In this document: positions 650 to 7,660 of the stretch, one piece after another
How the letters are laid out: each line of letters starts with the position of its first letter
Position numbering within the stretch: the stretch's first letter is position 1
Source: a virus
Taxonomy: Duplodnaviria; Heunggongvirae; Uroviricota; Caudoviricetes
IMG/VR virus record: IMGVR_UViG_2778261105_000004
Span: 1-7,660 of that record
Direction: 5' to 3' (one strand)
Length of the DNA stretch: 7,660 bases
Translations under genes and position numbers: made by a program
The notes under the pieces: model-generated
Told to the model about the DNA's origin: nothing
Databases searched by the model: none
The model's input: the letters and a program-made list of their open reading frames with translations, nothing else

Positions 650-2050
650 TCAGTATCCGATCGCTTCCCATGAAAACTTGCCGTAGCATCCCCTGACTGT
701 TATCAGAGTCACAGACACTAATGACGGATTCGACAGGGTATACATCTTAATGACGTTGGGGTCTCCCACTGCAGACACCTGAGCATTCAGAGCAGCAACC
801 GGAAAAGCGACAGGAAAACGGATAGAGTGTTGTGTCATAAGCTTACCATCATCCTCACTTACCTCAATACTGCCCCATTGCCGCAAACGACCGGTTACTT
901 CATCACGCTCCCAGCCATTTACTGTCAGGCTTGCTGTTGTGGGCTTGTTTTTTGTGCTGTAATCCACCCGCCAGTGAAAACGTTGTGTGTCTCCGTAAAC
1001 TGTACAGGTACAGACCGTGCCGTTCAGAAAACCATCGCCACCGTATTCGCCGATGGTGACCCGGACTATGGCTGCGTTATACGTCCCCATCACCTCAATG
1101 GCGCAGCCTCCCAGATTGAGTTTTCCCGGTCCGACATCCGTGATGACCTTATTAAATTCCGCAAGCAGTGATGCCTTCATCATCCAGTAAGGCTGGTCAA
1201 ATGCCCCCTTTTCTTTCAGCCTGGCCACAAACTCACTCGTGGTCCATTCACCGGTCTCCGTATGAATGTCCCGCCCGTATACTCTGGCTGCTCCCACGGT
1301 GTTCAGAAACTTCACCTTATCCGGGATATCGTCACCGTTTTTCGCTTTCTCCAGGCATCCGTCCGCTTTGTCCATTGCCGCTTTCACCGCTTTCGGGGTG
1401 GCTGCCTTCGTTTCATCATCACTGTCCGTTGCGCTGCTTAACTGCACAATTCCCTTCTGTGCCGTCGTCGCATCCGGTCCTCCCGGCTCGCCTTTTTCGC
1501 CCTTCTCTCCCCGTTCACCTTTCACACCCTGAAGCCCCTGTGGTCCTGTCTCACCACGCTCACCCTTTGGCCCACGCTCGCCGGTATCGCCTTTTGGCCC
1601 GGGAATACCCTGTGGCCCGGTGTCCCCCTTATCCCCCTTCGGTCCCCGCGCATTCTCTGCCCGTTTTTTTGCCTCCTCCGCACTGGCTGCGGACGCTTCC
1701 GCACGTTTCAGGATTTCCGCTGCCACCGCTTCCAGCTCTGCAAGGGCTTTCGGGTAATACTGTGCGTCTTCCAGGTCCATCAGATATTTATTCAGCGTTC
1801 CCGGTGCAGAATCCGCCTTCACCAGAATGTCACCCACATATGACGGCGCGTACCCTTCCGTGTTCAGCGTCACCCGGTACAACCCCGGCTCAACATCCAT
1901 ACTGTAACTGCCGGTTTCCCCCGGCTGACCATACGCCACCGTGGTGACAATCACCGTCTCCGTTGTGCGGCGCGCTTTCAGCTCTATCGTGCATCCCGGT
2001 ACCGCTTTTCCCGTACCATCCTTCAGCACACCCGATATTCTGACTGTCAT
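650..2050 (-). CDS. stf: Side tail fiber protein with collagen-like Gly-X-Y repeat (lambda Stf-like N-terminus)
   Basis: 466-aa ORF. The N-terminus [26 protein letters not shown]... resembles the lambda Stf N-terminus as remembered ([25 protein letters not shown]). It contains a Gly-X-Y repeat block ([55 protein letters not shown]) and the motif [12 protein letters not shown]...AATPKAVK that I also recall from lambda Stf. There is a GGGGGA SD upstream of the ATG at 2050..2048. Confidence 0.9.
1478..1645 (-). repeat. Collagen-like Gly-X-Y triplet-repeat coding block inside stf (about 19 triplets)
   Basis: Residues about 136-191 of the stf translation are uninterrupted G-X-Y triplets rich in Pro, Lys and Glu. 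The DNA here is a run of ggc/ccc-rich 9-nt periodic sequence on the plus strand. Confidence 0.8.
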
Positions 2051-2063
2051 GGATTTCCCCCAT

Positions 2064-2097
2064 AAAAAAACCGCAGGACCGGTTTCCCGGCCTGCGG
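2064..2097 (-). terminator. Rho-independent terminator (minus strand) ending the hok-like unit, immediately upstream of the stf SD and start
   Basis: Minus-strand reading is CCGCAGGCCGG-gaaa-CCGGTCCTGCGG followed by TTTTTTT (plus strand A7 at 2064..2070, hairpin 2071..2097). The GC-rich stem is about 11 bp with one bulge and a 4-nt loop, then a U7 tract, then atgggggaaatcc and the stf ATG. Confidence 0.6.
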
Positions 2098-2161
2098 TAA
2101 TATTTGTGGTTTGTTGGTGTTAAAACGGTGCCATCCGGCTGACCACCCTCAGCAACCGGTC

Positions 2162-2192: not shown

Positions 2193-2333
2193 TTACTGCT
2201 TACACTGTAAGAACGCCGCAATCTCCGCGCCCGCTATCCGGAACCGGAACTCGCACAGTGAAGTGTGGGTGATCCAGATAATGAGCACTACCGTGATACA
2301 AATCACGGTGGTTTTTAACGGTTTTTGCGACAT
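2193..2333 (-). CDS. hok: Hok/Gef-family type I toxin (46 aa small membrane peptide)
   Basis: My own minus-strand translation from ATG 2333..2331 to TAA 2195..2193 gives MSQKPLKTTVICITVVLIIWITHTSLCEFRFRIAGAEIAAFLQCKQ. It has a hydrophobic N-terminal helix (VICITVVLIIWI) followed by the SLCE-x-R...E-[IV]-AAF-[LM]-x-C signature that I recall as diagnostic for Hok/Gef/HokA-type peptides. The SD AAAAGGAG lies 9 nt upstream of the ATG and there is an in-frame TAA 6 codons upstream. The ORF is under 60 aa, so it is not in the supplied ORF track. Confidence 0.8.
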   Translation of the reverse strand: MSQKPLKTTVICITVVLIIWITHTSLCEFRFRIAGAEIAAFLQCKQ

Positions 2334-2486
2334 AAACGCTTGCTCCTTTTACGGAGAGGCGCTAACCTTTCACTTGCTTAGGATGAATGGTCAGGCCTCG
2401 GGTTAAACATGAATGTTTGTCCGGGGCCTTTTCACATCCGGCCTTCAGGTGTTCCCTCCGGCCATCAGCCAAAGGCACCCGCGCAT

Positions 2487-2531: not shown

Positions 2532-5500
2532 TCAGCGGATACTGATCCCCGCGCTGTTTTTCTTCACCACTATCGCCTGAAGGTTACTGATACGTGAACT
2601 GCCAAAACTCCCGTTCTGACGTCGTGAACTTACGGTAAAACTCAGGGTGATATGACCATGACCGGCTGGCATATCGATGATCCCGCTGAAAATTCCCGGC
2701 TCTGTCACTGACCTGCCTGAATAAATCCGGCGTCCGTTCTGATCAACATGCAGGAAGCACTCTGTCCAGATGTCATTACTGGTGCGGGATTCCTGTTTTG
2801 ACCCGACATAGATTATCGGCGGGATTATAATCTGCCGGTCAAAGCTGTGATCGTCATACACCGTCAGCGTTCGTGTACCGTTCGCAAGGTAACTACCATC
2901 CACCGGAAAAGCCACCCCTGCACATTTCACAAGATCACCAATAATGTTCTCCGCTTTCAGCGTGCCATTTATCGTACAGTTCTCCGCTATCACGACATTA
3001 TTCAGCGTGCCCGAGTTCGCACTGATATGTCCGCTGATGTCCGCATTGCGGGCCGTCAGCCTGCCCTCCGGCGTCAGGGAGAACGTCGGGGGATTGCCGG
3101 ACGAGGTGATGCTCACCGCAAACAGTCGCTTCAGGAACACATCGTTCATGAACAGCTGATTCCCCTGCGCCACAAACAGCGGCGTGGTGTTGCCGTTCTC
3201 CGGGTTAATCATCGCGATACGGTCCGCCTGCAGCAGTATATTGCTCAGGGGCTGGCCATCAGCATCCTCAATCCCCGCACCAATACCGGCAACATACGGA
3301 ATGCCGTTTTTTGTTTTCTGCACCTTCAGCATGTACAGCGCAGCCAGGTCGTTATTTGTGTCTGTCTGCACCCGCTGTATCTGCTGTATGGTGGCGCTCT
3401 GGTCTTCCAGGGTTTTACTGACCGTCTGCGTGATTTCATTGCGGGTTTCTGTGATGGTGGTCTTCATCTCCGCCATCTCATCATCAAGCTGGCTGTTATC
3501 AATCAGCTCCCACATCCCCTGTGCCAGATGCAGTTTTCCTATCTTTTCCCGAAACAGCCCCAGATACCCTTCCGCATCATTGCTGGCCCGGCCACTGGCT
3601 TCCACAAACGCAGATTTCCCCACCAGGTTGACGCTGCGCACATAAAACCAGAAATCCTTCCCCGGCTTAATGTGCGGGCCGGAGACACTCCACTGGCTGC
3701 CTGTCCCCAGATAACGGGCAGAGGTTTCCACCTGAGATGTGTCTGCGATTTTTGCCTCCGAAAACCAGAACTCAAATTGTACCGTCGGGTCATACACCGT
3801 AAGATGCGGGACCGCCGTTATCTGATAATACCCCGGCGTCAGTTCAATGCTGGCCGGTGCTGCCGGTGCGTTAATCCGGAACGTGGTGGTGGCAGGTTCG
3901 CCCTGCTGGCCGTAGCTGTTTATCGCCCTGACCGTCAGGGTGTATTCCCCGGGCGGCAGGCCACTGAAACGGTGCTCCGTGTCGGCAGTGATAGCGCTGG
4001 TCACCAGGCGGCTGTTTTCACCACTGCCACTGGTCAGGCGCAGACTGAAGCGCACGCCCTTCACCACCCGCGGCGTGTCCCATTTCGCCAGCGCCAGATA
4101 CTGGCCGTCTGAGGCACTCACCTCCACCGTGAGGTGCTGCACTGCCGGCGGGATGACGCTGTTCAGTGAACCGGTGAGCGGCTCAAAGGTGGCCCCGTTA
4201 TCCACGATGGCTTCTTTTTCCGGTACGTGCTGCACTGCCGTGATGGCAAAGGTGCCGTCCGTGTTTTCCCGGATGGAAACACAGCGGAACAGGCGACGAC
4301 GCAGTGACGGCAGGGAGAGTCCCCACACACCGTATGTCTCCACGCCATCAGGCAGGACGCTGACCTGTATCCGGTCAGGGGCGGGGTGTGCAGTGATGTC
4401 CACGCGCACCGGCTTACCGCTGCCGTTAATCAGGTTCACCGTCGATGTCCCTGCTTCCGGCAGTATCACCTCACGGTCCAGCGTCAGGGTACGGCTGGCG
4501 GCATCGATGGACAGGATGCGTCCACCGGTCAGGGTCCCGGCGTAGTCGTTATCACAGATTTCAATGATGTCACCGGGCGTGTGCCGCAGCCCCTGTGACC
4601 CGAGCGTGAAATCCACCGTCTGCGTTTCCAGCAGTTCTGTCTTTATCACCCACAGTCCGGCACGGTGGGCCTGACCGCGGCTGGTACAGCCGAACGCATC
4701 CATCTTCAGCAGATTGCGCCCGTAGCGCAGGATGGCGTCCGGGTCTTCCACCAGTTCCGTGGAGGTCTGCCAGCCGTTCTGCGGGTCGGTGTAATTCACC
4801 TCCACCGCCGTGTGCCGGTCCTTCAGGGCACTGAAGCTGTAGCGGAACCCCACGCCGTTATCATCCACCACCACATCGCTGTTGGTGTACGGCCACACCA
4901 CATCCGACGGACGGTCCTGAACGAACGTCAGCGTCTGGCCGTTCCATACCGGCATACAGCGCATCGCCGAGCAGAAATCCCCCAGGACATCCCACACCTT
5001 ACGCTGCTGTGACAGGTACGCATTGAAAGTCATCCGCGGCTCTGTTCCCCCGAAACCATCCGGGACCGTCTGGTCACAGTACTGCCCGATGGCATACAGT
5101 GCCCACTTGTCCACGTCCGCCGCCCCCAGGCGTTTTCCCATCCCGTAGCGCGGGTGGGTCAGCATGTCCCACAGGCACCAGGCCGGGTTATTGCTGTATG
5201 CCGGTTTCAGACTCCCGTCCCAGATACCGCTGTAGGTGCGTTTTTCCGGGTCATAGTTTGACGGCACCTGAATGATGCGACCACGGATATGGTAGTTCAC
5301 CGTCAGCTGCTGGCCACCAAACTGCTCCGCATCCACCTGCAGCCCCACAATCGCCGTGTTCGGGTAGCACTGTTTCACATCGATGATTTCGGTGTATGAC
5401 GACCACAGCGTTCTGTTCTGCAGCTGGTCCGTGGTGCTGTCCGCCGTCACCCTGACCATCCGGATGTTAAAGGGGCGCTCAGGGAGATTATTCAGAATCA

Positions 5501-5999
5501 CCGACGTCAGGTACTGCGAGGTGGTCTTGCCGTTAATGGTGACATCCTTCTCCGTCACCCAGTGCCCGTTACGCTCAAGCTGAATCAGCAGGCGGACAGA
5601 AGAGGGATTACGGTCACCCTTTGAGGTGGTCTCCACCAGTGACTGTACCCCGAAGGTGACCCGCAGACGGTCAATGTTCGCTGACGTGATGGTGCGCGTC
5701 ACCGGCTTTGCCTTCGTCACCTCCACGCCCAGTGCGGTTTCCGCCCCGGAGGACTCAAAGCCTTCCGGCGGTGTCTGCTCCTGCTCCCCGGCACGCCAGA
5801 CGGCGGTCACACCGTGTATCACGGGATTACCGTCCGTGTCCGTCAGCGGGGTTTTGTTCACCAGAATACTCTGCAGTCCCTTCACCGGACCTTCCACCGG
5901 TCCCTCACCAATGGCATCAATCACGCTCATCATCTGCGTGGATTTGAGATTGTCCTTCGCCTCACTCGGTGTGTGCCCCTTGCCGCCCCCTTTACCCAC
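2532..5999 (-). CDS. J: Host specificity protein J (tail tip / central tail fiber protein)
   Basis: 1155-aa ORF. The N-terminus (M)[36 protein letters not shown]... and long internal stretches (e.g. [95 protein letters not shown]) match lambda J as I remember it. The initiation codon is GTG (5999..5997), preceded by the SD GGAGAGGGGGA. It lies immediately downstream of I and upstream of stf. Confidence 0.95.
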
Positions 6000-6040
6000 T
6001 CTGTCCCCCTCTCCTGTCTGATGTCTGAATCTGTTTATGC

Positions 6041-6073
6041 CAGAAAACGACAGGCACCCCGGAGGGTGCCTGT
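6041..6073 (-). terminator. Candidate minus-strand hairpin with U-tract (attenuator or partial terminator) about 40 nt upstream of the J start
   Basis: Minus strand reads ACAGGCACCC-tccg-GGGTGCCTGT, a perfect 10-bp GC-rich stem with a 4-nt loop (plus strand 6050..6073), followed by CGTTTTCTG. The U-tract is interrupted, so termination efficiency is uncertain. Confidence 0.35.
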
Positions 6074-6099
6074 GTCATGACGGAATAAAATTTCTGAAA

Positions 6100-6138
6100 T
6101 TCTTCACATTTCCGGCAATTGCCTGTAGCCACTATAAT
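6100..6138 (+). promoter_or_regulatory. Unit A promoter-like element: conserved box TTCTTCACATT plus -10 hexamer TATAAT 33 nt downstream
   Basis: Box 6100..6110 and TATAAT 6133..6138 on the plus strand. The same box and a TATCAT hexamer occur at the identical 33-nt offset in unit B, although the intervening 22 nt are diverged. There is no good -35 (TTCCGG), which suggests an activator-dependent or non-canonical promoter. Confidence 0.35.
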
Positions 6139-6144
6139 GACGCA

Positions 6145-6247
6145 GCGTTACAGTTTTTTTGCTCAATAAAAGCAATAATTATCAGACCTCCTTAAGGTGA
6201 CTATTCGTCTCCCGTCAGTATCCGGCGATATTACGGGAGATTTTTTT
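6145..6247 (+). ncRNA. Candidate small RNA A (about 100 nt), antisense to the tail operon, in the I-J intergenic region
   Basis: Predicted start about 7 nt after the TATAAT. The 5' region GCGTTACAGTTTTTTTGCTCAATAAAAGCAATAA is conserved with unit B. It contains an anti-SD-like CCTCCTT and ends at a strong intrinsic terminator. There is no plausible ORF with an SD on this strand. Confidence 0.35.
6208..6247 (+). terminator. Rho-independent terminator of unit A (plus strand)
   Basis: TCTCCCGT-c-AGTATC-cggc-GATATT-ACGGGAGA (about 14 bp of stem with one bulge and a 4-nt loop, 6208..6240) followed by TTTTTTT (6241..6247). Confidence 0.7.
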
Positions 6248-6339
6248 GCTTCAGCCACACCACAACATCCTGCTCATTTACGCCACTGGTACCCTGGCGG
6301 TCATCCGTTCTGTAAACCTGCGACAGAAAAAGTCTGAAT

Positions 6340-6378
6340 TTCTTCACATTTTCTGTACGTTCCCGTGGCAGATATCAT
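6340..6378 (+). promoter_or_regulatory. Unit B promoter-like element: conserved box TTCTTCACATT plus -10-like hexamer TATCAT 33 nt downstream
   Basis: Box 6340..6350 and TATCAT 6373..6378, the same box-to-hexamer distance as unit A. The flanking GTCTGAATTTCTTCACATTTT is conserved with unit A (TCTGAAATTCTTCACATTT). Confidence 0.3.
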
Positions 6379-6384
6379 TCCGGG

Positions 6385-6484
6385 GCGTTACAGTTTTTTC
6401 GGGTCAATAAAAACAAAACTCCTTGAACGTTAATCTTCATCGGTTCTGTCCCGCAGCTCCGCTAACTCTGCGGGATTTTTTTTT
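6385..6484 (+). ncRNA. Candidate small RNA B (about 100 nt), paralog of unit A, antisense to the tail operon
   Basis: The conserved 5' region GGCGTTACAGTTTTTTCGGGTCAATAAAAACAAAACTCCTT aligns with unit A. It ends at a strong terminator 5 nt from the I stop codon. There is no plausible coding capacity. Confidence 0.35.
6449..6484 (+). terminator. Rho-independent terminator of unit B (plus strand)
   Basis: TCCCGCAG-ctccgctaact-CTGCGGGA (8-bp GC-rich stem, 6449..6475) followed by TTTTTTTTT (6476..6484). Confidence 0.7.
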
Positions 6485-6488
6485 ATTT

Positions 6489-7169
6489 TTATCCCCGCCC
6501 GATAACCACCACTTTCCCGTCTCCGCCCTCATCACGGGTGCTGATATCCTGGGATATCCGTCGTGAACCAACCAGCATTTCACCGTAAGGCACCGGCATC
6601 GGGTTACCCTGGGCAATCATGTTGTCCAGTGACGAAAAATACGTGTTCTGTTTACCGTTATCCGTACTTTTGTACTCCGGCGTCTTTGCCTTCGGGGCCA
6701 GCATCTGGGCCACACCACCCAGTATCATGCTGGCACCCAGTGAGAACAGCATCGTGGTGGCAGTCAGCCCTCCGGCACTCAGGGCTGCGCCCCATGCCGC
6801 CAGTGTTGCACCACCAGTGAAAAATGACCCGACAATCGCTGCAACCCCCAGCACCACCTGAAAAACACCATTTCCCCCGGCTCCGGCCAGTCGCGGCACA
6901 ATGTGGATGACCGCTCCCTCACCCAGTTGTTCGTGAAGACGGGCGTACACCGCCTCCGGTGCGGTATCCTCACCGGCAATACGTATCTGATACCAGCCTT
7001 CGTTCATCTGACCGCGGAATCCCGGCACCTGCAGCGACAGGGCACGGATGGCCTCCGCTGCCGTGTTCACATACAGGCTGATGCGGCGACCAAATCGTTG
7101 TAAATCCCCGTGAAGGCAGATGCGGACCAGTGGCGGTGACGCCAGACAGAATGCGTTCGTCGTTGCCAT
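6489..7169 (-). CDS. I: Tail tip assembly protein I
   Basis: 226-aa ORF MATTNAFCLASPPLVRICLHGDLQRFGRRISLYVNTAAEAIRAL...GKQNTYFSSLDNMIAQGN... It closely matches lambda gpI as I recall it (RFGRRI, IHIVPR, a Gly/Ala-rich hydrophobic segment, GKQNTYFSSLDNM). The SD GGGAGAGG lies upstream of the ATG at 7169..7167. Confidence 0.92.
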   Translation of the reverse strand: MATTNAFCLASPPLVRICLHGDLQRFGRRISLYVNTAAEAIRALSLQVPGFRGQMNEGWYQIRIAGEDTAPEAVYARLHEQLGEGAVIHIVPRLAGAGGNGVFQVVLGVAAIVGSFFTGGATLAAWGAALSAGGLTATTMLFSLGASMILGGVAQMLAPKAKTPEYKSTDNGKQNTYFSSLDNMIAQGNPMPVPYGEMLVGSRRISQDISTRDEGGDGKVVVIGRG

Positions 7170-7660
7170 TTTTCAGAATACCTCTCCCGTTTACTCAGTT
7201 GTTCAGGTATATGGTGAAGCAGTTCACCGTTGCCACAGTAAATGGCGGCATGATTCGGCACCGATGAACCAAAGCAGCACAGCAGGATATCGCCCGCCTG
7301 TGCACAGGACGGAGACACCCGGTAAAAGCCGTTGTCTGCCAGGTTGTCCAGGTACAGGTTCTGACCGTTGCGCCACCAGTCATCCTCACGCACAAAATCC
7401 GGCAGCGTTATCCCCGCCAGATGGTATGCATCCCGGAACAGGGTGTAACAGTCCGTCACACCGTGTTCAAAGCGCCGTCCGGTCAGGTGCGGCACACAGC
7501 GGAACCGGTGAATTTCACCCCGGCAGACCAGCCACCAGGGCAGGGCACTCTTTATCTGCAGCCGCCGGTCCGCCTCGCTCAGCCAGGGCAGACCACCGGG
7601 ATGACTGTGGACCAGCGCCACAATCTCCCCCTGCATCTGTGCCTGCAGCCAGTCTTCCGG
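7067..7660 (-). CDS. K: Tail tip assembly protein K (JAMM/MPN metalloprotease motif plus NlpC/P60-like Cys/His region); partial, N-terminus beyond the window edge
   Basis: The frame is open from the window edge (PEDWLQAQMQGEIVALVHSHPGGLPWLSEAD...). The JAMM signature H-S-H-x7-S-x2-D is at about 7568..7609, which is too close to the Met at 7636 for that Met to be the real start, so the gene must begin upstream of 7660. Downstream are DCYTLF (candidate catalytic Cys) and a conserved His region. The 3' end overlaps the I start by about 103 nt in another frame. Confidence 0.9.
   Translation of the reverse strand, partial: PEDWLQAQMQGEIVALVHSHPGGLPWLSEADRRLQIKSALPWWLVCRGEIHRFRCVPHLTGRRFEHGVTDCYTLFRDAYHLAGITLPDFVREDDWWRNGQNLYLDNLADNGFYRVSPSCAQAGDILLCCFGSSVPNHAAIYCGNGELLHHIPEQLSKRERYSEKWQRRTHSVWRHRHWSASAFTGIYNDLVAASACM

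What the first reader, a model, noticed from the sequence alone, without database searches (positions are those of the whole stretch)
6085..6488. Expanded I-J intergenic region with two tandem paralogous promoter-to-terminator units: candidate pair of small RNAs antisense to the tail operon
I and J are separated by about 490 bp here, versus about 60 bp in lambda as I recall it. The insert contains two diverged direct copies (about 6093..6247 and 6333..6484) sharing (a) the box TCTGAA(A/T)TTCTTCACATTT, (b) a -10-like hexamer (TATAAT / TATCAT) exactly 33 nt after the box start despite a diverged 22-nt spacer, (c) a conserved predicted transcript 5' end GCGTTACAGTTTTTT...TCAATAAAA.CAA, (d) a CUCCUU anti-SD-like motif and (e) a strong intrinsic terminator on the plus strand, which is the strand opposite the tail genes. 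Conservation concentrated at box, -10 and +1 with drift elsewhere is the pattern expected for functional promoters driving two non-coding RNAs of about 100 nt. Neither unit has a credible ORF with an SD. Prophage-encoded sRNAs are established in lambdoid prophages of E. coli and Salmonella, but I do not recognise this unit as a named family.
Basis: partly seen in the sequence, partly recalled or inferred. Interest (0 to 1): 0.78.

Follow-up and report, generated by a model that had tools for sequence, protein, structure and literature searches.

The report
Tandem PasB-family prophage small RNA genes
The enlarged gap between tail genes I and J holds two side-by-side copies of a known prophage small-RNA gene (PasB in EPEC, EcOnc22-24 in EHEC O157); the gene family is known, but the tandem arrangement with different target-binding regions appears not to have been described.

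Summary
The I-J gap (6000-6488, 489 nt) holds two diverged promoter-to-terminator units on the strand opposite the tail genes.

The units are not an unnamed family. They belong to the family of PasB (EPEC E2348/69: RIL-seq, Northern, Hfq-dependent, 83 nt) and EcOnc22/23/24 (EHEC Sakai: Hfq-CRAC, Northern ~85 nt, destabilised without Hfq). Both published RNAs map to the I-J gap of their prophages, opposite the tail genes. A covariance model built without window sequences hits unit 2 at 90.7 bits and unit 1 at 32 bits. Rfam 15 has no model for the family.

New points:
- Related prophages carry arrays of 1 to 4 units. The window's pair equals a 3-unit array minus one unit, with the junction in a terminator arm.
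- Unit 1 belongs to a diverged subtype with its own invariant 21-nt candidate seed.
- Every unit keeps an invariant TCTGA-N6-TCACA box at a fixed distance from the -10. It resembles a CRP site.

Verdict: the sRNA interpretation is supported. This is a new member and a new arrangement of a known kind, of moderate interest.

The parts
2532..5999 (-). Tail tip protein J gene (flank). Its GTG start at 5997-5999 bounds the gap.
   Evidence: ORF list. Pfam GpJ domains, E 1e-36 to 1e-41.
6050..6073 (.). Perfect 10-bp inverted repeat ACAGGCACCC/GGGTGCCTGT. On the minus strand it is followed by CGTTTTCTGG, which is terminator-like, just upstream of the J ribosome-binding site. It occurs once per gap, not once per unit.
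   Evidence: Present in the Sakai, BP-4795, E2348/69 and RM10042 gaps.
6087..6111 (+). Unit 1 upstream box. The core TCTGA-N6-TCACA is at 6093-6108. It is a candidate activator (CRP-like) site.
   Evidence: The half-sites are intact in every unit of every related gap that has a unit, while N6 positions vary.
6133..6138 (+). Unit 1 -10 hexamer TATAAT (candidate promoter A). The predicted +1 is about 6145.
   Evidence: Sequence. A hexamer sits at this fixed offset of 40 in 42 of 45 distinct units, and 41 of 45 have a good -10 there.
6149..6154 (+). Unit 1 second -10-like hexamer TACAGT (candidate promoter B). The predicted +1 is G6161, which matches the 5' ends mapped for the homologues.
   Evidence: By my reading of the listing, a TAnnnT hexamer at offset 55-56 is kept in all 45 units, including those that lost promoter A. 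PasB 5' end. EcOnc22 peak after coordinate calibration.
6145..6247 (+). Unit 1 predicted sRNA at its longest extent. The alternative 5' end is 6161, giving 87 nt. It is a diverged PasB-family paralogue.
   Evidence: Covariance model R1: 32 bits, E 9e-5, full length. Fold -25.2 kcal/mol, z -2.97.
6188..6208 (+). Unit 1 candidate seed CTCCTTAAGGTGACTATTCGT, which includes the anti-SD-like CUCCUU.
   Evidence: These 21 nt are identical in WIN_u1, L089_u1 and RM10042_u2, which are otherwise 75-77% identical.
6207..6247 (+). Unit 1 intrinsic terminator: a 15-bp interrupted stem followed by U7.
6248..6326 (.). Inter-unit spacer of unknown origin.
   Evidence: Found only in the 23 genomes that carry this array type. 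No similarity to I-gene ends.
6327..6351 (+). Unit 2 upstream box, with core 6333-6348.
6373..6378 (+). Unit 2 -10 hexamer TATCAT (candidate promoter A). The predicted +1 is about 6385.
6389..6394 (+). Unit 2 second -10-like hexamer TACAGT (candidate promoter B). The predicted +1 is G6401.
6385..6484 (+). Unit 2 predicted sRNA at its longest extent. The alternative 5' end is 6401, giving 84 nt. It is a PasB/EcOnc22-type sRNA.
   Evidence: Covariance model R1: 90.7 bits, E 8e-16. It is 82% identical to Sakai EcOnc22 and 77% to PasB. 21 of the probe's 23 matching bases recur at window 6429-6452.
6418..6440 (+). Unit 2 conserved single-stranded region ACUCCUUGAACGUUAAUCUUCAU, the candidate seed.
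   Evidence: Low entropy across 38 units. Unpaired in the centroid fold. Zhu et al. place the PasB seed just upstream of the terminator.
6448..6484 (+). Unit 2 intrinsic terminator GUCCCGCAG...CUGCGGGAU followed by U9. It ends 5 nt before the I stop codon.
   Evidence: The stem is nearly invariant in the family.
6489..7169 (-). Tail assembly protein I gene (flank).
   Evidence: Pfam Lambda_tail_I, E 3e-16.

Best explanation
The I-J gap carries two tandem, independently transcribed genes for Hfq-dependent base-pairing small RNAs of the PasB / EcOnc22-24 family. They are moron-type inserts on the strand opposite the late tail operon.

Each unit has four parts:
- An invariant TCTGA-N6-TCACA box.
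- A promoter, with two overlapping -10 candidates 16 nt apart.
- A body of roughly 85-100 nt with an A-rich stretch and a single-stranded conserved region carrying an anti-Shine-Dalgarno-like CUCCUU.
- A strong intrinsic terminator with a U tail.

Inferred mechanism: in the lysogen each RNA is made from its own promoter, bound by Hfq, and pairs through the conserved single-stranded region with host or prophage mRNAs, probably near ribosome-binding sites. The two units share the upstream control region but differ in seed and terminator, so the pair would put two target sets under one signal. The box most resembles a CRP site, so cAMP-CRP control is my leading but unproven guess (about 0.35).

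The pair is one state of a repeat array of 1 to 4 units that expands and contracts by recombination between units.

Shown here: the anatomy, homology, synteny, array variation, and the deletion junction.
Taken from papers on the homologues: expression, size and Hfq dependence.
Inferred: expression of these two copies, their targets, and the regulator.
For: Locus and strand identity with validated sRNAs:
- The EcOnc22/23/24 peaks lie in the I-J gaps of Sakai Sp15, Sp14 and Sp11 on the anti-tail strand.
- 23 nt of their Northern probe match the Sakai unit exactly, and 21 of those 23 bases are kept in window unit 2.
- The PasB coordinates and probe map to the I-J gap of E2348/69 PP6.

Published properties of the homologues:
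- EcOnc22 gives a Northern band of ~85 nt and is destabilised in a hfq deletion.
- PasB is 83 nt, has 37 RIL-seq interactions, and drops by log2 -6.8 in a hfq deletion.

Homology: a model built without window sequences scores 90.7 bits (unit 2) and 32 bits (unit 1), both full length.

Conservation is modular. Box half-sites have entropy 0, the -10 0.47, GCGTTA 0.23, the seed about 0.5 and the terminator arms 0.03-0.28, against 0.9-1.2 in the spacers. The box-to-(-10) distance is fixed in 42 of 45 distinct units despite variable spacer sequence.

Unit 1 type: the 21-nt candidate seed is invariant among variants that are 75-77% identical.

Non-coding: frames are not conserved and there are no Pfam hits.

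Arrays: gaps with 1, 2, 3 and 4 units exist. The window gap is identical to the 3-unit L088 gap for its first 457 nt, then continues with the terminator of L088 unit 3.

CRP idea:
- 9 of 10 core positions match TGTGA-N6-TCACA. The window has 3 one-mismatch matches against 0.34 expected; two are the paralogous boxes and the third, at 698-713, is unrelated.
- Variation is confined to the N6 spacer.
- The box centre is at -60.5 relative to G6161/G6401.
- PasB is higher in overnight LB culture than in DMEM.
Against: - No expression data exist for this window's copies. Unit 1 scores only 32 bits and could be weakly expressed or silent.
- There is no covariation support, because the terminator stem is almost invariant.
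- Unit 2 does not fold better than shuffles overall (z -0.99).
- The transcription start is unresolved. The strong TATAAT predicts +1 at 6145/6385, but PasB's annotated 5' end and the calibrated EcOnc22 Hfq peak start about 16 nt downstream.
- For CRP, the box would sit at -44.5 relative to the TATAAT promoter, which is off-phase for a class II site. One half-site carries C in place of the consensus G. The LB-versus-DMEM difference also involves growth phase.
- Targets are unknown, and a cis-antisense role during lytic growth is not excluded.
Confidence: 0.85

Rival explanations
1. Only unit 2 is a working sRNA gene. Unit 1 is a decaying duplicate left by recombination and is not expressed or not functional.
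For: Unit 1 scores 32 bits against 90.7 for unit 2. It is 63-68% identical to the validated members. The unit-1 type was seen only inside multi-unit arrays in the loci examined.
Against: Unit 1 has a perfect TATAAT, an intact box, and the stronger terminator and better fold (z -2.97). Its 21-nt single-stranded core is invariant across three variants that are otherwise 75-77% identical. Its 111-nt body (6140-6250) matches in 100 genomes, 26 of them over at least 80% of its length.
Confidence: 0.15
2. The RNAs act mainly in cis as antisense regulators of the late tail transcript. They would pair with the I-J intercistronic RNA to trigger cleavage or change J expression during lytic growth.
For: They are fully complementary to the intercistronic part of the late transcript and run convergent to it. 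The position between I and J is conserved in most relatives.
Against: The RNA bodies do not overlap the J start region, which lies about 145 nt or more from the nearest +1, or the I coding sequence. PasB has 37 trans partners on Hfq. In 14 of 77 relatives the same body sits behind sodC, so the promoter context is dispensable. The position is also a general insertion hot spot.
Confidence: 0.12
3. The region is a decayed or small protein-coding gene, or merely duplicated terminators with no promoter.
For: Short ORFs of 46-54 aa exist on both strands.
Against: There are no Pfam hits. The recurrent ATG frame ranges from 14 to 66 aa through frameshifts among relatives. Indels among units are of many different lengths, most not multiples of three. 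The promoter-side elements are the best-conserved parts.
Confidence: 0.02

Closest known systems
PasB (EPEC E2348/69 prophage PP6; Pearl Mizrahi et al. 2021, PMC8550237; surveyed by Zhu, Shabalina and Storz 2026, bioRxiv 10.64898/2026.05.13.724894)
   Same: Same locus (I-J gap) and same strand relative to the tail genes. It has the same box, -10, GCGTTA, T-run, CUCCUU...AUCUUCAU region and CCCGCAG/CUGCGGG terminator. It scores 99.9 bits with the family model.
   Different: PasB is a single unit in a 240-nt gap. Window unit 2 is 77% identical and unit 1 is 68% identical to it. The survey reports PasB as usually single-copy with at least 28 kb between copies, and does not mention tandem arrays, a promoter or EcOnc22.
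EcOnc22/23/24 (EHEC O157:H7 Sakai prophages Sp15, Sp14, Sp11; Tree et al. 2014, PMC4104026)
   Same: Same locus and strand. It is 82% identical to window unit 2. 21 of the probe's 23 matching bases are kept in window unit 2.
   Different: There is one unit per prophage. Its promoter half resembles window unit 1 and its body resembles unit 2, so it is a mosaic. Its function was listed as unknown in the 2021 review.
Tandem paralogous sRNAs such as OmrA/OmrB, PrrF1/PrrF2 and Qrr1-5 (own knowledge; cited)
   Same: Adjacent duplicated sRNA genes with a shared upstream regulatory site and partly different bodies.
   Different: Those are core-genome genes with fixed copy number. Here the array sits in a prophage tail operon and varies from 1 to 4 units between strains.
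HnrS (EcOnc10-12), and AgvB / AsxR anti-sRNAs and Esr41 of EHEC prophages
   Same: Short Hfq-binding sRNAs encoded in lambdoid prophages of the same strains.
   Different: HnrS lies after the lysis genes and has a different sequence. The Rfam models for AgvB, AsxR and Esr41 do not hit the window.

Membership tests
PasB / EcOnc22-24 prophage sRNA family | Encoded in the gap between tail genes I and J, on the strand opposite to them. | tested here: met
   Window ORFs and Pfam. The same arrangement holds for PasB and EcOnc22/23/24.
PasB / EcOnc22-24 prophage sRNA family | Sequence homology to the validated members over the whole RNA. | tested here: met
   Model R1, built from 18 units that include PasB and EcOnc22 and exclude window sequences, gives unit 2 90.7 bits (E 8e-16) and unit 1 32 bits (E 9e-5), both over model positions 1-96. 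Unit 1 is a distant member.
PasB / EcOnc22-24 prophage sRNA family | Rho-independent terminator with a U tail, preceded by a single-stranded conserved region. | tested here: met
   Folds and conservation profile.
PasB / EcOnc22-24 prophage sRNA family | Expressed as an RNA of about 83-85 nt that binds Hfq and depends on it for stability. | not testable with these tools
   Known only for the homologues. No transcript data exist for this window.
Rfam families, including AgvB RF02702, AsxR RF02703 and Esr41 RF02676 | A match to the family covariance model. | tested here: not met
   cmscan at E up to 1 gives nothing in 6000-6488 except a 19.6-bit terminator-only match to anti-hemB, whose gathering score is 49.5.
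HnrS (EcOnc10-12) | A 66-nt sRNA downstream of the lysis genes with a CUUCU seed against hha. | tested here: not met
   HnrS maps after the endopeptidase gene in Sp10 and has an unrelated sequence.
CRP-dependent promoter | A TGTGA-N6-TCACA site. | tested here: met
   TCTGA-N6-TCACA matches 9 of 10 core positions in both units, and the right half with its flank TCACATTT is perfect. The window has 3 matches against 0.34 expected. The half-sites are invariant and N6 is variable in all units.
CRP-dependent promoter | Site centred near -41.5 (class II) or near -61.5, -72.5 and so on (class I) relative to the start. This spacing rule is from established knowledge. | tested here: inconclusive
   The centre is at -44.5 from the TATAAT-predicted start and at -60.5 from the start implied by the PasB and EcOnc22 5' ends. 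The true start is unknown.
CRP-dependent promoter | CRP-cAMP binding and crp-dependent activity. | not testable with these tools
   There is only a weak hint: PasB is higher in overnight LB culture than in DMEM.
Moron (autonomous insert in a phage operon) | Own promoter and terminator, inserted between two phage genes that are adjacent in lambda. | tested here: met
   See the anatomy above. As I recall it, the lambda I-J gap is about 60 bp. Relatives carry 1-4 units, or sodC plus the sRNA body, at the same site.
Small protein gene | A conserved open reading frame. | tested here: not met

The most novel reading that the evidence does not exclude
The I-J gap of lambdoid prophages in pathogenic E. 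coli is an expandable small-RNA array. It holds 1 to 4 tandem PasB-type genes that all keep one invariant operator (a CRP-like box at a fixed distance from the promoter) but have diversified seeds. Units are gained and lost by recombination between them. A prophage could therefore change how many host mRNA sets it connects to a single, possibly carbon-source, signal.

The papers I could search describe PasB as essentially single-copy and do not link it to EcOnc22-24. They also do not describe the operator or the arrays.
Probability: 0.4. Interest if true: 0.55.

Novelty: new member of a known kind. Interest (0 to 1): 0.38.

Why it matters
Prophage sRNAs are among the most abundant Hfq ligands in EHEC and EPEC, and they tie horizontally acquired DNA into host regulation.

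This window links two separately named sRNAs, PasB and EcOnc22-24, to one family at one conserved phage locus.

It also gives three testable leads:
- Copy number and seed content at this locus vary between STEC strains from 1 to 4 units.
- There is a diverged subtype with its own conserved seed and unknown targets.
- A strictly conserved operator suggests which signal controls the family.

None of these changes how prophage sRNAs are understood in general. The value is incremental, and useful mainly for annotation (there is no Rfam model) and for people working on PasB.

Tried and rejected
- **Rfam:** a scan of the whole window gave no family for the gap.
- **AgvB or HnrS identity:** I first suspected one of these. 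AgvB's Rfam model does not hit, and HnrS maps to the lysis region.
- **Box pattern scan of one genome per species:** 82 hits, almost all chance matches. Only E. albertii and a few short contigs that look like contamination were real, so the family appears confined to Escherichia.
- **Spacer 6248-6326 as a remnant of another I-gene 3' end:** there is no DNA or protein similarity. The spacer occurs only in the 23 genomes with this array type. Alignment to I is no better than shuffles (fraction 0.29-0.67). The spacers of the 4-unit array share only an 11-nt TTTTTATCCCC with I ends. Their origin stays unexplained.
- **Covariation support for structure:** none is available, because the terminator stem is nearly invariant.
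- **LexA-box reading of the box:** rejected by eye, because the critical CAG is CAT and the invariant bases fit CRP half-sites better.
- **Exact start site from published dRNA-seq:** the supplementary data are not held. I could only calibrate old Sakai coordinates to about +135, which places the EcOnc22 Hfq peak immediately after the T-run.
- **PasB target list:** I did not extract it from the large RIL-seq table.
Full report
**Context.** All large ORFs of the window run on the minus strand and are lambda-type tail genes. They are K (7067-7636), I (6489-7169), J (2532-5999) and a tail fibre gene (650-2050). The I-J gap is 6000-6488, which is 489 nt.

**Checking the observation.** The repeat finder gives 6087-6159 against 6327-6399 at 74% identity and a spacing of 240. 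Shorter in-register repeats follow over the downstream body and terminator.
- Both copies carry TCTGA-N6-TCACA (6093-6108, 6333-6348).
- Both carry a -10-like hexamer 40 nt after the TCTGA start (TATAAT 6133-6138, TATCAT 6373-6378).
- Both carry GCGTTACAGTTTTTT and CTCCTT.
- Both end in a plus-strand hairpin with a T-run (6207-6247, 6448-6484).
- The simple sigma-70 scan finds no -35/-10 pair, so any promoter here lacks a good -35.

**What it is.** Rfam 15 has nothing for the gap. BLAST shows the sequence in about 780-800 of 5426 complete E. coli genomes, with a median of three places per genome. It also occurs in 147 deposited phages, mostly Stx-converting, always unannotated and usually as a single unit of about 240 bp.

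The literature then supplied names.
- Tree et al. 2014 list the Hfq-CRAC peaks EcOnc22/23/24 in Sakai prophages Sp15, Sp14 and Sp11. They report a Northern band of ~85 nt that is destabilised in a hfq deletion.
- All three coordinates fall in the I-J gaps of those prophages, on the anti-tail strand.
- 23 nt of the published Northern probe match the Sakai unit exactly. 21 of those 23 bases recur at window 6429-6452.
- Pearl Mizrahi et al. 2021 list PasB of EPEC E2348/69 as 83 nt, with a Northern probe and 37 RIL-seq interactions, and strongly reduced in a hfq deletion.
- Its coordinates lie in the I-J gap of prophage PP6, again opposite the tail genes. The probe is the reverse complement of the family terminator.

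So PasB and EcOnc22-24 are one family, and the window units belong to it. The papers I could search do not make this link. HnrS (EcOnc10-12), which I suspected at first, maps after the lysis genes and is unrelated.

**Formal membership test.** I collected 80 related loci through the I protein, extracted the I-J gaps and aligned 38 distinct units. A covariance model was built from 18 units, including PasB and EcOnc22 but no window sequence or identical copy. It hits the window only at 6385-6482 (90.7 bits, E 8e-16) and 6145-6247 (32 bits, E 9e-5), both over the full model. Unit 2 is 82% identical to EcOnc22 and 77% to PasB. Unit 1 is 63-68% identical to them.

**Coding is excluded.** The one recurrent ATG frame varies from 14 to 66 aa through frameshifts, and the window's short ORFs have no Pfam hits.

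**Conservation pattern.** Mean column entropy across the 38 distinct units:

| Element | Entropy (bits) |
|---|---|
| Two box half-sites | 0 |
| N6 between them | 0.36 |
| Box-to-(-10) spacer | 0.93 |
| -10 | 0.47 |
| GCGTTA | 0.23 |
| CUCCUU and AUCUUCAU regions | about 0.5 |
| Linkers and terminator loop | 1.0-1.2 |
| Terminator arms | 0.03-0.28 |

The half-site value is partly by construction, because I located units with the box pattern. However, every gap that has a unit at all has the intact pattern, and no unit lacks it. The four units of the RM10042 array also keep both half-sites while N6 differs in each. The terminator stem is too invariant to give covariation. The support for an RNA is therefore homology plus modular conservation, not covariation.

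**Where transcription starts.** There are two candidates.

- The hexamer sits at a fixed offset of 40 in 42 of 45 distinct units, and 41 of 45 have a good -10 there.
- In PasB itself it is preceded by TTCACA at 16 bp.
- It predicts +1 at 6145/6385 and RNAs of about 100 nt.

*Promoter B* is a TAnnnT hexamer inside the conserved GCGTTAcagT, 16 nt downstream.
- By my reading of the listing it is present in all 45 units. That includes the three that have lost promoter A (L089_u1, L091_u1, RM10042_u3).
- It predicts +1 at the G after the T-run (6161/6401) and RNAs of 84-87 nt.

Two independent data sets favour a 5' end after the T-run.
- PasB's annotated 5' end is there.
- I calibrated the old Sakai coordinates to about +135, using the published PR' start and tR' of the Stx1 phage. 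The HnrS terminator is consistent with this offset. After calibration the EcOnc22 Hfq peak begins at the G after the T-run.

Either promoter B is the main start, or a promoter A transcript is trimmed. I cannot decide this here.

**The box.** TCTGA-N6-TCACA with flanking TTT matches the CRP consensus TGTGA-N6-TCACA at 9 of 10 core positions. One-mismatch matches number 3 in the window against 0.34 expected. Two of these are the paralogous boxes, which are not independent. The third, at 698-713, is unrelated.

Three things are what a dimeric activator site looks like: invariant half-sites, a variable centre, and a fixed distance to the promoter across an otherwise variable spacer. The centre lies at -60.5 from the promoter B start, within 1 bp of the classical class I position. 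It lies at -44.5 from the promoter A start, which is off-phase for class II. PasB is more abundant in overnight LB cultures than in DMEM. That fits CRP but also fits growth phase. I rate CRP control at about 0.35. It is an inference, not a finding.

**Array variation.** Gap lengths among relatives fall into classes:

| Gap length (nt) | Content |
|---|---|
| about 235-260 | one unit (the majority) |
| about 340 | one unit plus another hairpin |
| 418-423 | two units |
| 712 | three units |
| 848-851 | no box; sodC plus an sRNA body |

- E. coli RM10042 has 909 nt with four complete units, including a unit-1-type copy and a third seed type.
- 67 complete genomes cover at least 80% of the 4-unit gap, and 43 cover at least 80% of the 3-unit gap.
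- No deposited phage covers at least 80% of the window's gap.
- The window gap is identical to the 3-unit gap of L088 for its first 457 nt, up to the CCCGCAG arm of unit 2's terminator. It then continues with the loop and 3' arm of L088 unit 3.
- The window's pair therefore equals the triple array minus one unit, with the junction in the shared terminator arm. This is a recombination between repeats, and the direction (loss or gain) is not determined.
- The Pas survey reports PasB as mostly single-copy with at least 28 kb between copies, and says nothing on tandem copies, a promoter or CRP.

**Unit 1.** It belongs to a diverged subtype. Its 111-nt body (6140-6250) matches in 100 genomes, 26 of them over at least 80% of its length and most of the rest at 80-90% identity. 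The 21 nt CTCCTTAAGGTGACTATTCGT are identical in three variants that are otherwise 75-77% identical. This argues for selection on a seed, and against unit 1 being a dead copy.

**Mechanism, with status.**
- Shown: two promoter-to-terminator units of the PasB family on the anti-tail strand, their modular conservation, their array behaviour and their non-coding nature.
- From the literature on homologues: expression in lysogens, a size of about 83-85 nt, Hfq binding and dependence, and many mRNA partners.
- Inferred: both window copies are expressed, they act in trans through the conserved single-stranded region (probably at ribosome-binding sites, given the CUCCUU), the two seeds give different target sets, and the box is a CRP site.

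A cis-antisense effect on the late transcript remains possible but is not favoured. The RNA bodies overlap neither the J start region nor the I coding sequence.

**Dead ends.** The inter-unit spacer (6248-6326) is not a recognisable remnant of an I-gene end, and its origin is unexplained. The pattern scan across species found the family essentially only in Escherichia.

**Verdict.** The family is already known from experiments under two names, though it is absent from Rfam. What is new is modest:
- the identity of PasB with EcOnc22-24;
- the tandem arrays and the origin of this window's pair;
- the diverged unit-1 subtype;
- the invariant CRP-like operator.

Noticed in passing
window 2193-2480 (-): A hok/sok-type toxin-antitoxin module lies between J and the tail fibre gene. 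The 46-aa ORF at 2193-2333 matches Pfam HOK_GEF (E 6e-11). Positions 2322-2480 match Rfam sok RF01794 at 55 bits, just under the gathering score of 59 (E 2e-10).
   Followed up: partly
L119 and 13 other IMG/VR loci (I-J gap of 848-851 nt): In 14 of 77 related loci the gap carries a Cu,Zn superoxide dismutase gene (sodC; Pfam Sod_Cu, E 4e-32) on the anti-tail strand. It is followed directly by a PasB-type body and terminator (75.6 bits) that lacks the box and the TATAAT. There the sRNA would be the 3' end of the sodC transcript.
   Followed up: partly
L170 323-1231 (E. coli O43 RM10042): This I-J gap is 909 nt and holds four complete tandem units, including a third seed type (ACGCCAACAGGUUAGUCAACAUCG). 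67 complete E. coli genomes cover at least 80% of this gap.
   Followed up: partly
window 6050-6073: A perfect 10-bp hairpin that on the minus strand is followed by CGTTTTCTGG, so it looks like a terminator, right before the J ribosome-binding site. It is conserved in most relatives and occurs once per gap. In the ~340-nt gap class a different hairpin with U-rich flanks takes its place. Its role is unknown.
   Followed up: no
window 6248-6326; L088 and L170 inter-unit spacers: The inter-unit spacers are 65-80 nt long, come in at least three sequence types, and have no detectable relatives outside the arrays. Two types begin with TTATCCCC, like the end of gene I.
   Followed up: yes
L002, L005, L169 (Sakai NC_002695.2): Coordinates published against NC_002695.1 are shifted by about +135 in NC_002695.2 at 2.93 Mb, and by a consistent amount at 1.95 Mb. 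Anyone mapping the EcOnc tables onto the current record needs to apply this shift.
   Followed up: yes
window 2062-2105: A GC-rich hairpin CCGCAG...CTGCGG flanked by A and T runs lies between the hok-like ORF and the tail fibre gene. It is a likely two-way terminator. It gives only a weak terminator-level match to the sRNA model (8.7 bits).
   Followed up: no
window 698-713 (+): A third one-mismatch match to TGTGA-N6-TCACA (TGTTATCAGAGTCACA) lies inside the 3' end of the tail fibre ORF. It is probably chance.
   Followed up: no
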